Shown here in pieces: positions 48,760 through 51,487 of a stretch of DNA of 64,000 nt. Source of the stretch: Escherichia coli (GTDB lineage: Bacteria > Pseudomonadota > Gammaproteobacteria > Enterobacterales > Enterobacteriaceae); the NCBI RefSeq assembly GCF_003790525.1, contig NZ_CP033635.1; one strand, 5' to 3'. The translations under genes and the position numbers were made by a program. A model generated the notes under the pieces. That model had not been told where the DNA came from. It saw nothing but the letters and a program-made list of their open reading frames with translations, and made no database searches. Position 1 is the stretch's first letter, and each line of letters starts with the position of its first letter.

Positions 48760-50082
48760 TTACAACGACTGATGTCGCGTCTCATGGGTCAGCAGCAGGG
48801 CGATTAACGTCAAGCCAGCCATCGCCGCCAGATATAGCCCCACCGCACCTAACCCGTAGTTAGTCTGCAACCAGGCTGCGATATACGGCGCAACGGAAGC
48901 CCCGAGAATCGACGATACGTTGTAAGAGAACGATGCTCCGGTGTAACGCACTTCTGTCGGGAACAGCTCTGGTAACAGCGCGCCCATCGGACCGAAGGTC
49001 AGCCCCATCAGACTTAACCCCAGCAGCAGGAAGGCAAAAACCAGAATCGGGTTGCCAGAACCGAGCAACGGGTTAAAGGCGAACAGCGCGAACAGGATGA
49101 TCAGCGTGGTGATGATTACCATGCTTTTACGGCGACCAAAGGCATCAGCCAGTAATCCGGCGACTGGCACCATCACGCCAAAACCAATAACTGCCATCAT
49201 CAGCATCCACAACACTTCGTTACGCGGCAGGCCAAGCCCAACTGGCGCGGCGGCGGTACTAAAGGTCATAGAGTAGACCGTCATGATGTAAAACAGCGTA
49301 TAGGTTGCCAGCATAATGAACGTACCCAGTACGGTTACGCGAACATGTTTGGTCAGCAGCGTACCCAGCGGGATCTTCACCTGTTTTTTCGCTTTAGCGA
49401 CTTTCTCAAACACCGGCGACTCATGCAGCGACACGCGAACATACAGGCCGATAATGACCAGCACCGCCGAGAAGATAAACGGCACGCGCCAGCCCCAGCT
49501 CATAAACTGCTCGTCGGTCAGTAGCCAGGAAAGCAGCAAGAAAGTGCCGTTGGCAAAGAAGAAGCCAATCGGTGCGCCCAGCTGCGGGAAGGAGCCATAC
49601 AGTGCACGTTTGCGCGGTGGGGCGTTTTCAGTCGCCAGCAGCGCCGCGCCGCCCCATTCGCCGCCTAAACCCAGACCCTGACCAAATCGAGCCAGCGCCA
49701 GCAGCAGCGGGGCGAAAATACCAATCGTGGCATAGCCCGGCAGCAGACCAATCACCACGGTCGAAATCCCCATCGTTAGCAACGAGGCGACCAGCGTCGC
49801 TTTACGCCCAACGCGATCGCCAAAATGACCAAAAACGGCAGAGCCAATGGGGCGCGCGACGAAGGCGATGGCGAAGGTGGCAAGCGACTGTAGCGTTGCT
49901 GCCGTAGGATCACCCTGCGGGAAGAAGATATGCGGAAACACAATAACGGCCGCAGTGGCGTAAATGTAAAAGTCGAAGAACTCAATGGCCGTGCCAATGA
50001 GAGAGGCGACAAGGACTTTATTACGCGAGTTGATCGGCGTGTATTCTTGCTCGTGGTCGAGTGTTGTGGCTGTTGCTTGCAT
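48760..50082 (-). CDS. yhjE: MFS metabolite:H+ symporter family transporter YhjE
   Basis: 440-aa polytopic ORF recognised as YhjE. Confidence 0.92.
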   Translation of the reverse strand: MQATATTLDHEQEYTPINSRNKVLVASLIGTAIEFFDFYIYATAAVIVFPHIFFPQGDPTAATLQSLATFAIAFVARPIGSAVFGHFGDRVGRKATLVASLLTMGISTVVIGLLPGYATIGIFAPLLLALARFGQGLGLGGEWGGAALLATENAPPRKRALYGSFPQLGAPIGFFFANGTFLLLSWLLTDEQFMSWGWRVPFIFSAVLVIIGLYVRVSLHESPVFEKVAKAKKQVKIPLGTLLTKHVRVTVLGTFIMLATYTLFYIMTVYSMTFSTAAAPVGLGLPRNEVLWMLMMAVIGFGVMVPVAGLLADAFGRRKSMVIITTLIILFALFAFNPLLGSGNPILVFAFLLLGLSLMGLTFGPMGALLPELFPTEVRYTGASFSYNVSSILGASVAPYIAAWLQTNYGLGAVGLYLAAMAGLTLIALLLTHETRHQSL

Positions 50083-50473
50083 AATCTTTTCTTATTTTTT
50101 GGCTAACGAATAGCCATATTACGCACAGCAAAAGTGATATTTCAATGTGTAACAAATCGCGGAAATGGTCAAAAATCAGGCAAAAAGGGGATAATGTTTA
50201 GGCCAGTGATTTTTCTTCTATGAAATGCTTCACATAATTTTATAAATAGTGGATAAAACTGGTTTCAGGTTAAATAAAAGTTACCAACTGGATTTATATG
50301 CTGGGGTTATGAGTTGGAATGAAATTGTTTGCTCCTGAAGAGATGTAGTTTCAGGTGGTTATGTGCATGTCATTGCCTGGTCTCTGGCTGGCTTGTACCC
50401 CCTCACCCTAATCCTCTCCCCGAAGGGGCGAGGGGATCGACCGTGCGTTTATCAGGCATTATAAACCAATGAA

Positions 50474-51487
50474 TTACCGCTGCGTTTTCCCCGGCATTCG
50501 CGGGTCGTCTTTATATTCGGCGGTGGCAATCCACGCCGCGCAAAACAGCGTCAAACGGGCGAAGAAGTAGAAAAATGCCATCAGCCCCAGCACGGAACCA
50601 AATGCTGCGCCAGAGGGGGATTTCATCAGCGATGGCAGGGTGTAAGTCATCACAATTTTAATCACTTCAAAACCAATAGCAGCCAGAAATGTTCCGCGAA
50701 TCAGGGCTTTTTTGCGCGGACGGTGGCGCGGTAACCGCCAGAAGATCCAGAAGAAAAGCAGATAGTTGGCGAAGATGGAAATCGCCAGGCCAATCAACCG
50801 CCACGTCGGTTTCAGCCACTCAATGCTGTTCAGGTGCAGGGCGCTAATAATCATTTGCTGCGCAGAACCGGCAACCGAGGTGATAGAAAGCGTCACAATC
50901 AGCGCAATCAACAAACCAATCAGCGAAATAAAATCACGCAGATATTTTACCCAGAACTTCTCCTGATCTTGCGGCGAGCGTTCCCAGACATCGCGCGACT
51001 GGGCACGAATCGCTTCACGCAGGTTACCCATCCAGTTGATGCCGGAATAAAGTGCCACCGCCAGGCCGACAAGCCCTACAGTCGTACGCTGCTGAACGGC
51101 GGTGTTGATGGTGTTTTTCAACGTGGCGGCTAGCGTCGGATCGCTGATGTTTTGCAGAATTTTGTCGAAGATATCCTGTAGCAACATCGGATGGGAGGCC
51201 AGCACAAAGCCCCCTGCGGCAAACGACACCATCAAAATCGGGATCATCGACAAAAATGAGAAATAGGTGATAGCCGCACCAAACTGGTTACCCAGCCGAT
51301 CGTTAAAGCGTTCTGTCGCGCGAATCAGGTGCGCAATAACCGGTTGGCGTTGGACTTTCTCGGCAGTAGTGGTGACGGTTTCCAGCGCCTGGCTAACTTT
51401 GCCGCCTTTCTCGCTATTATCCAACTGCTTAATCGGCTCGTGCTCCAGATCCTGGGTGGGACGTTTGATCTCGTTTTCCTGCGTCAT
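50474..51487 (-). CDS. yhjD: YihY/BrkB-family inner membrane protein YhjD
   Basis: 337-aa ORF; recognised as YhjD. Confidence 0.9.
   Translation of the reverse strand: MTQENEIKRPTQDLEHEPIKQLDNSEKGGKVSQALETVTTTAEKVQRQPVIAHLIRATERFNDRLGNQFGAAITYFSFLSMIPILMVSFAAGGFVLASHPMLLQDIFDKILQNISDPTLAATLKNTINTAVQQRTTVGLVGLAVALYSGINWMGNLREAIRAQSRDVWERSPQDQEKFWVKYLRDFISLIGLLIALIVTLSITSVAGSAQQMIISALHLNSIEWLKPTWRLIGLAISIFANYLLFFWIFWRLPRHRPRKKALIRGTFLAAIGFEVIKIVMTYTLPSLMKSPSGAAFGSVLGLMAFFYFFARLTLFCAAWIATAEYKDDPRMPGKTQR

What the first reader, a model, noticed from the sequence alone, without database searches (positions are those of the whole stretch)
50398..50440. GC-rich imperfect palindrome in the yhjE-yhjD intergenic region
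CCCCTCACCCTAATCCTCTCCCCGAAGGGGCGAGGGGATCG is a GC-rich element with partial dyad symmetry (CCTCTCCCC … GGGGCGAGGGG) embedded in otherwise AT-rich intergenic DNA. It resembles small intergenic repeat families of E. coli (possibly box C-like) rather than a canonical terminator, since there is no T-run. Its function is unknown.
Basis: seen in the sequence. Interest (0 to 1): 0.2.

Follow-up and report, generated by a model that had tools for sequence, protein, structure and literature searches.

The report
Box C repeat after yhjD
The GC-rich palindrome is an ordinary, slightly decayed copy of "Box C", a small repeat scattered about 20 times through E. coli genomes whose function is still unproven; in this strain's lineage it sits where most E. 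coli carry a different repeat (REP/BIME).

Summary
The sequence is real (exact match at 50399-50439). It lies 35 nt downstream of the yhjD stop codon, in the yhjD-yhjE spacer of E. coli SMS-3-5. Read on the yhjD sense (-) strand it is CCCTCGCCC-cttcg-GGGAGAGGa-tta-GGGTGAGGG. That is the three-block Box C / PIT / TMECO motif, type A, with one base off the published strict consensus.

A profile built from 14 other copies finds it with E = 1.6e-14 over 56 nt (50396-50451), the published Box C length. A 66-nt query finds a median of 18 places per E. coli genome.

New here:
- This copy is present in only 600 of 5426 complete E. coli genomes.
- 4809 genomes, and four other Escherichia species-level representatives, carry a REP/BIME at the same spot, so the Box C allele is derived.
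- Most other enterobacterial genera have a simple conserved hairpin there.

Most likely it is a passive structured repeat that gives yhjD mRNA a stable 3' stem-loop (-26.5 kcal/mol). Published tests found no promoter or terminator activity for the family. This is a known family and of low interest.

The parts
50396..50451 (-). Complete 56-nt Box C unit: conserved left flank TAAACGCACGGTCGATC, then the three-block core, then GGTA.
   Evidence: nhmmer with a profile of 14 paralogous copies (window copy excluded): 49.3 bits, E = 1.6e-14. It is the only significant hit in the 64 kb window.
50426..50434 (-). Block 1, CCCTCGCCC: the pyrimidine block, which pairs with block 2 or with block 3.
   Evidence: Pattern match; sequence read directly.
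50421..50425 (-). Loop 1, CTTCG.
   Evidence: the published consensus allows N3-6 here.
50412..50420 (-). Block 2, GGGAGAGGa. The last base (window 50412) is A where the family consensus has G. This is a derived point mutation.
   Evidence: Orthologous alleles in strains 405 and K_EC180 carry G at this position.
50409..50411 (-). Loop 2, TTA, which defines 'type A' TMECO.
50400..50408 (-). Block 3, GGGTGAGGG. It is the third strand of the in-vitro triplex. In RNA it is the preferred pairing partner of block 1, through a G-U pair.
   Evidence: RNA minimum-free-energy structures.
50367..50473 (.). Allele-specific segment of about 107 nt that replaces the REP/BIME found at this position in most E. 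coli. It holds the Box C unit plus unique filler sequence.
   Evidence: Alignment with K-12 and with other Escherichia. Megablast finds this segment in 600 of 5426 genomes, once each.
50375..50381 (+). GCCTGGT, a REP-like heptamer. It may be a stub of the ancestral BIME. It is an inverted partner of 50451-50457.
   Evidence: Sequence and alignment. The evidence is only suggestive; one search shows no general association of Box C with REP.
50451..50457 (+). ATCAGGC, a REP-like heptamer on the yhjD side of the Box C unit.
   Evidence: (repeat D4). The evidence is only suggestive.
50474..51487 (-). yhjD coding sequence. Its stop codon TAA (50476-50474) lies 35 nt upstream of the quoted 41-mer (39 nt upstream of block 1) and 22 nt upstream of the 56-nt unit, on the sense strand.
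48760..50082 (-). yhjE coding sequence, the downstream gene on the same strand. The spacer 50083-50345 next to it is conserved in nearly all E. coli.

Best explanation
The element is one copy of the Box C repeat family, also published as PIT elements and as TMECO. It is type A, with the usual G·A central mismatch plus one extra G-to-A change at the end of block 2.

Shown:
- It belongs to a dispersed family of about 56-nt intergenic repeats, present in about 10-30 copies per E. coli genome and in many other Enterobacteriaceae.
- At this locus it is a derived allele. It replaced the REP/BIME that nearly all other Escherichia carry immediately after the yhjD stop codon.
- It is now decaying by point mutation and small deletion in different strains.

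Inferred mechanism: the element has no sequence-specific regulatory job at this locus.
- It is most likely transcribed as the tail of the yhjD mRNA. There block 1 pairs with block 3 to give a stem of about 12 bp (-26.5 kcal/mol).
- That stem would stand in for the REP stem-loops (other E. coli) or the simple hairpin (other genera) found at the same position. It would act as a generic 3' stem-loop that shields the transcript end from 3' exonucleases. It would not act as an intrinsic terminator.
- At the DNA level, the G-rich strand can fold into a purine-motif intrastrand triplex when single-stranded. This has been shown only in vitro, in the literature. It is the published explanation for why Box C loci, this one included, are unusually polymorphic between strains.
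For: Identity:
- The core matches CCCTCNCCC-N3-6-GGGNGAGGG-N3-GGGNGAGGG with one substitution (consensus from PMC4666352; pattern match).
- A profile of 14 paralogous copies gives E = 1.6e-14 over exactly 56 nt, including the conserved left flank.
- A 66-nt query finds a median of 18 places per genome in 5425 of 5426 genomes.
- The literature gives Box C as 56 bp with 32 copies (PMC2267715) and counts 23 strict TMECOs in K-12 and 7 in SMS-3-5.

Derived allele:
- 600 genomes carry it and 4809 carry the K-12-type BIME.
- E. albertii, E. whittamii and the other Escherichia representatives all have REP/BIME there.

Decay:
- Strains 405 and K_EC180 keep the consensus G at block 2.
- HS-02 has lost block 3.

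Structure:
- The sense-strand RNA folds at -26.5 kcal/mol, z = -2.2, with 4 of 200 shuffles as good. The antisense strand gives -19.4 kcal/mol, z = -1.1.

Positional equivalence:
- In 79 orthologous loci, 87% have a significantly structured first 90 nt after the yhjD stop.
- Most genera show a conserved hairpin GGGCTGAA...TTCAGCCC about 10 nt after the stop.

Not a terminator or promoter:
- There is no T-run and no consensus site.
- PIT elements showed no promoter or terminator activity (cited in PMC4666352).
Against: - The proposed 3'-end-protection role is inferred from position and folding only. No transcript data were available here. The folding z-score is modest, and stem-loops after stop codons are common, so positional equivalence could simply reflect a permissive insertion site.
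- The published work found no effect of PIT elements on RNA polymerase and no functional class of neighbouring genes. That fits 'no function' as well as it fits a weak generic function.
- Watson-Crick DNA folds of either strand are no better than shuffles.
- In-vivo DMS footprinting in the literature did not detect the triplex.
- The strict published regular expression is missed by one base, which is why this copy is absent from the published SMS-3-5 list.
Confidence: 0.9

Rival explanations
1. It is the intrinsic (Rho-independent) terminator of yhjD.
For: It is a GC-rich stem-loop beginning 22-39 nt after the yhjD stop, on the sense strand. Other genera have a hairpin at the same place.
Against: No U/T tract follows the stem; the next bases are GGGGGTACAAGCC. 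The terminator scan finds nothing here. Published reporter tests of PIT/Box C elements found no terminator activity (cited in PMC4666352).
Confidence: 0.08
2. It is, or was, a mobile miniature element that specifically targeted the REP/BIME at this site. IS1397-type elements target BIMEs in this way.
For: - The Box C unit is bracketed by REP-like heptamers, GCCTGGT (50375-50381) and ATCAGGC (50451-50457). The site holds a BIME in all relatives.
- Box C core sequences are nearly identical across genera.
- The recA-recX spacer shows a clean filled-versus-empty polymorphism.
Against: - There is no general association of Box C with REP-like heptamers: 2 of 39 copies, against 6.4% of random windows.
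- The DNA inserted at yhjD and at recA-recX shares only about 60 nt of Box C, and the rest is unrelated.
- No clear target-site duplication is visible.
- The literature found no link to transposons, phages or plasmids. Only 52 of 90,050 places are on plasmids.
Confidence: 0.07
3. It is a regulatory protein-binding site for the downstream yhjE promoter.
For: It lies about 320-370 nt upstream of the yhjE start codon, on the promoter side of the spacer.
Against: It is absent from 89% of E. coli genomes, whereas the spacer next to yhjE (50083-50345) is conserved in nearly all of them and across genera. The family shows no functional class of neighbouring genes and no preferred distance to ORFs.
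Confidence: 0.03
4. It is a chance GC-rich palindrome, or part of a small + strand ORF (50329-50472, 47 aa).
For: The ORF finder mechanically lists two short + strand ORFs over it.
Against: The family profile gives E = 1.6e-14 and the pattern is expected 0.00 times by chance. The ORFs lie in a segment missing from 89% of genomes and start with TTG or GTG.
Confidence: 0.01

Closest known systems
Box C repeat of E. coli, also published as PIT (potential intrastrand triplex) elements (Hoyne/Maher 2000) and as TMECO (Holder et al. 2015, PMC4666352)
   Same: - Three-block core CCCTCNCCC / GGGNGAGGG / GGGNGAGGG with a TTA second loop (type A).
- A 56-nt unit with the conserved left flank (A-rich, then GCRCGGWCRGTC).
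- Intergenic location and multi-copy dispersal.
- The locus is polymorphic between strains, as the 2015 paper reports for the family.
   Different: - One extra substitution (GGGAGAGGa) puts it outside the strict published regular expression, so it is missing from the published SMS-3-5 list of 7 copies. It would have two non-canonical triplets of nine instead of one.
- It is a solitary copy, not an A+B inverted pair.
REP / BIME (PU) elements
   Same: - Small GC-rich palindromic intergenic repeats placed just after stop codons.
- They occupy exactly this site in 4809 of 5426 E. coli genomes and in other Escherichia species.
- REP stem-loops are known to protect upstream mRNA from 3' exonucleases (established knowledge, not tested here).
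   Different: - There is no sequence homology to REP in the core.
- Only two 7-nt REP-like stubs flank it.
- No RAYT-type transposase or IHF/gyrase binding is known for Box C.
Intrinsic terminators
   Same: A GC-rich stem-loop shortly after a stop codon, on the sense strand.
   Different: There is no U tract. The family has been reported to lack terminator activity.
ERIC/IRU and other enterobacterial MITE-like repeats
   Same: Dispersed, intergenic, structured, transcribed within UTRs, and showing presence/absence polymorphism between strains.
   Different: ERIC is about 127 bp with terminal inverted repeats and has a different sequence. Box C has no recognised terminal inverted repeats or target-site duplication.

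Membership tests
Box C / PIT / TMECO | Strict core consensus CCCTCNCCC-N3-6-GGGNGAGGG-N3-GGGNGAGGG (Holder 2015). | tested here: inconclusive
   The window copy matches all but one specified base (block 2 is GGGAGAGGa; one search used a pattern relaxed at that base). The orthologous allele in strain 405 (L090) meets the strict consensus. The miss is therefore a later point mutation in a true member.
Box C / PIT / TMECO | Sequence homology to other family copies, including the flanks (unit of about 56 bp). | tested here: met
   A profile HMM of 14 paralogous copies from SMS-3-5 and other strains (window copy excluded) hits 50396-50451 (-) with 49.3 bits and E = 1.6e-14 over a 56-nt alignment.
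Box C / PIT / TMECO | Dispersed, multi-copy presence in the genome. | tested here: met
   A 66-nt query finds a median of 18 and up to 33 places per genome in 5425 of 5426 E. coli genomes. Seven strict copies are listed for SMS-3-5 in the literature; five of them were recovered by pattern match in the stretches fetched, and the other two as inexact or shifted matches.
Box C / PIT / TMECO | Intergenic location. | tested here: met
   The element lies between the yhjD stop (50474) and the yhjE start (50082).
Box C / PIT / TMECO | The G-rich strand forms an intrastrand purine-motif triplex as single-stranded DNA in vitro. | not testable with these tools
   The available folding tools model Watson-Crick and G-U pairs only. 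By inspection, 7 of 9 triplets would be canonical in this copy.
REP / BIME | REP consensus palindrome (GCCGGATG...CATCCGGC or GCCTGATG...CATCAGGC, followed by CTAC). | tested here: not met
   The core has no REP sequence. Only the isolated heptamers GCCTGGT and ATCAGGC flank it. The K-12 allele at the same site does contain two full REPs.
Intrinsic terminator | A GC-rich stem-loop followed directly by a run of T/U. | tested here: not met
   The terminator scan reports nothing at 50380-50473 on either strand. The sequence after the stem is GGGGGTACAAGCC.
Any curated Rfam RNA family | A covariance-model match at or above the gathering score. | tested here: not met
   The best overlapping hit is Antizyme_FSE at 18.6 bits against a gathering score of 40, E = 0.42, which is chance level.

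The most novel reading that the evidence does not exclude
The yhjD 3' end may be a site where three unrelated structured elements have replaced one another during enterobacterial evolution: a simple hairpin in most genera, REP/BIME in Escherichia, Salmonella and Citrobacter, and Box C in one E. coli lineage. If selection maintains 'some stable stem-loop' there, Box C would be a functional substitute for REP as an mRNA 3'-end stabiliser. That would give the family its first demonstrated cellular role. Alternatively, the replacement may record Box C invading a BIME, which would be a clue to its unknown mode of spread.
Probability: 0.12. Interest if true: 0.4.

Novelty: already known. Interest (0 to 1): 0.1.

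Why it matters
It matters little. The element is an ordinary member of a repeat family described in the 1990s and re-analysed in 2000-2002 and 2015. No phenotype is attached to the family.

There are three modest points of value:
- Strict-consensus catalogues miss decayed copies such as this one.
- The yhjD-yhjE spacer is a clean, nearly biallelic natural experiment: Box C in 600 genomes and BIME in 4809. It could be used to test whether Box C affects mRNA 3' ends, yhjE expression or local mutation rate.
- It is one more documented case of the strain-to-strain instability reported for Box C loci.

Tried and rejected
- Rfam search of the spacer at a permissive threshold gave only chance-level hits.
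- My first fixed-spacing pattern found nothing because the spacing was wrong. The corrected three-block pattern found the element.
- The promoter/terminator scan found nothing overlapping the element.
- Watson-Crick DNA folding of either strand was no better than shuffles, so a plain DNA cruciform is not a distinguishing property.
- REP-targeting hypothesis: the REP-like heptamers flanking this copy are not a family trait (2 of 39 copies against 6.4% background).
- I looked for this copy in the published catalogue. It is absent from the SMS-3-5 list. I could not establish whether the yhjD locus is among the paper's 63 loci in other strains. Two supplement queries failed on syntax.
- The literature search for later functional work on Box C/PIT/TMECO returned nothing beyond the 2015 paper. 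The other 'boxC' hits concern the unrelated nut/rrn antitermination boxC.
- The short + strand ORFs over the element were rejected, because they lie in a segment missing from 89% of genomes.

Full report
**Observation.** The quoted 41-mer is present once, at 50399-50439 on the + strand, and never in shuffled sequence. The window is E. coli SMS-3-5: the spacer is 100% identical to NC_010498.1. The flanking ORFs are yhjE (48760-50082) and yhjD (50474-51487), both on the - strand.

The element is 62-69% GC in a spacer that is otherwise 35.5% GC. A second dyad, 50399-50408 with 50426-50435, is also present, so the element has three blocks.

**What it is.** On the yhjD sense (-) strand the sequence reads CCCTCGCCC-CTTCG-GGGAGAGGA-TTA-GGGTGAGGG-G. 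Holder et al. 2015 (PMC4666352) give the consensus CCCTCNCCC-N3-6-GGGNGAGGG-N3-GGGNGAGGG for the E. coli element. It was first named Box C, then PIT, and they call it TMECO. A TTA second loop defines type A, and a G at the N of block 1 gives the common 'mm' subtype. The window copy fits with one further substitution, at the last base of block 2.

I fetched the stretches holding the seven copies that paper lists for SMS-3-5 (pattern matching there recovered eight copies, one of them unlisted), plus six copies from four loci in other strains: entC-fepB, recA-recX, alx-sstT and cstA-ybdD. The copies share the core, a left flank (A-rich, then GCRCGGWCRGTC) and a short right flank.

A profile of the 14 paralogous copies, built without the window copy, hits 50396-50451 (-) at E = 1.6e-14. 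It aligns 56 nt and finds nothing else in the 64 kb. Fifty-six base pairs is the published Box C length (PMC2267715).

A 66-nt query finds a median of 18 places per genome in essentially every E. coli genome, almost all of them chromosomal. The same profile finds copies with near-identical cores in the following genera:
- Klebsiella
- Enterobacter
- Pluralibacter
- Phytobacter
- Pseudocitrobacter
- Kosakonia
- Huaxiibacter

Membership of the Box C family is therefore established. The single departure from the strict consensus explains why this copy is not among the seven listed for SMS-3-5.

**The locus.** Only 600 of 5426 complete E. coli genomes carry this segment, once each and always next to yhjD, at 97-100% identity. 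In 4809 genomes the same position holds a REP/BIME with two inverted REPs, as in K-12.

Orthologous loci were recovered through YhjD. They show REP/BIME after the yhjD stop in E. albertii, E. whittamii and three other Escherichia representatives. The Box C allele is therefore derived within E. coli. Its carriers include SMS-3-5 and a strain named ST648. From my own knowledge these belong to phylogroup F, but phylogroups were not tested here.

Most other genera have only 47-59 nt between the stop codon and the conserved yhjE upstream block. That stretch is occupied by a conserved simple hairpin, GGGCTGAA-loop-TTCAGCCC. Salmonella and Citrobacter mostly have REPs there.

Within the Box C allele, strains 405 and K_EC180 keep the consensus G where SMS-3-5 has A, K_EC180 has a different substitution, and HS-02 has lost block 3. 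The copy is decaying. This matches the 'TMECO mutated/missing' classes and the elevated local variability reported for the family.

**How it probably works.** Two things were shown here.
- As RNA on the yhjD sense strand, the 56-nt unit folds with block 1 paired to block 3. The energy is -26.5 kcal/mol with z = -2.2. The antisense strand is weaker, at -19.4 kcal/mol with z = -1.1.
- There is no U tract and no promoter-like or terminator-like site.

From the literature:
- The G-rich single strand forms a stable purine-motif triplex in vitro, but no triplex was detected in vivo.
- PIT elements had no promoter or terminator activity and no effect on RNA polymerase.
- Box C loci are more variable between strains than control spacers.

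My inference is that the element is a passive structured repeat. Its one likely local consequence is a stable stem-loop in the yhjD 3' UTR. That stem-loop would be functionally equivalent to the REP stem-loops or the simple hairpin that occupy the same spot elsewhere. In support, 87% of 79 orthologous loci are significantly structured in the first 90 nt after the stop. This positional argument is weak, because stem-loops and repeats commonly sit after stop codons.

**Rivals.**
- A terminator is unlikely: there is no U run and the published assays were negative.
- A yhjE regulatory site is unlikely, because the element is absent from 89% of genomes while the adjacent spacer is conserved.
- A REP-targeting mobile element is suggested only by two REP-like heptamers bracketing this copy. 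It is not supported family-wide (2 of 39 copies).
- Chance is excluded.

**Novelty.** The family, its triplex-type architecture, its lack of known function and the instability of its loci are all published. This copy is an uncatalogued, slightly degenerate member. The nearly biallelic BIME/Box C polymorphism at yhjD is a small new detail that could serve as a natural experiment. Interest is low.

Noticed in passing
window 50346-50476, compared with L001 1764-1913 (K-12): K-12 and 4809 of 5426 E. coli genomes have a two-REP BIME at the exact place where SMS-3-5 has Box C. The last sense codon of yhjD also differs (CGG here, CCT in K-12, AAT or CAT in other Escherichia), so the variable zone reaches into the reading frame.
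   Followed up: yes
L012-L086, first ~60 nt after the yhjD stop (for example L012 3530-3590): Most enterobacterial genera share a conserved hairpin, (AT)CGGGCTGAA-loop(4-14 nt)-TTCAGCCCG(AT), followed by TCATCATTTCAGCA, about 10 nt after the yhjD stop. It is probably the ancestral yhjD 3' structure, later displaced by REP/BIME or Box C.
   Followed up: partly
window 50083-50345; CRP-like site at 50219-50234: The roughly 260 nt upstream of yhjE are conserved in nearly all E. coli, and long blocks are recognisable across genera. They include TGTGAAGCATTTCATA on the - strand, which resembles the CRP consensus TGTGA-N6-TCACA (from my own knowledge). They also include a promoter-like TTGAAA-18-TAATAT at 50145-50116.
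   Followed up: no
L007 5237-5297 and 5433-5491; L012 5121-5245; L051 5497-5558; L036 5195-5253; L047 5437-5488; L065 5118-5166: Box C copies, often A+B inverted pairs, sit immediately after the yhjE stop codon in E. coli E69, Pseudocitrobacter, Enterobacter, Phytobacter, Huaxiibacter and Kosakonia. The window has none in its yhjE-yhjG spacer. Other copies lie about 2 kb upstream of yhjD in Klebsiella, Pluralibacter and Enterobacter. This neighbourhood acquires Box C repeatedly.
   Followed up: partly
L093 550-790 (TUM18780), compared with L096 341-408 (K-12): The recA-recX spacer is polymorphic. TUM18780 carries an insertion of about 175 bp, holding a type A Box C plus a degenerate inverted second copy, between the recA stop and the recA terminator hairpin. 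K-12 has the empty site. The sequences at the two junctions look like diverged copies of the K-12 spacer (possibly a duplication), but this is unclear.
   Followed up: partly
L087 601-697 (strain HS-02): This is a rearranged version of the Box C allele at yhjD. Block 3 is deleted (7 nt) and the left flank is reshuffled. It was the only one of the 600 carriers with less than 95% identity.
   Followed up: partly
window ~50340-50350, compared with L001 ~1764-1783: K-12 and several Escherichia have a 20-nt stretch on the yhjE side of the repeat (sense strand GTCCCCAGAGCCTCTTCAGC) that SMS-3-5 and the Escherichia representative L008 lack. It is an older indel, independent of the BIME/Box C difference.
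   Followed up: no
L092 636-764; L094 630-767; L003 11820-11953: Paired Box C copies (type A plus type B, inverted) share a conserved spacer, GAACAGGCCAGCACTGGTGCGAA, that is itself palindromic (CCAGCACTGG). The right flank of the window copy (GTACAAGCCAGCC) resembles the start of this spacer. The window copy may therefore derive from a composite element that lost its second half.
   Followed up: partly
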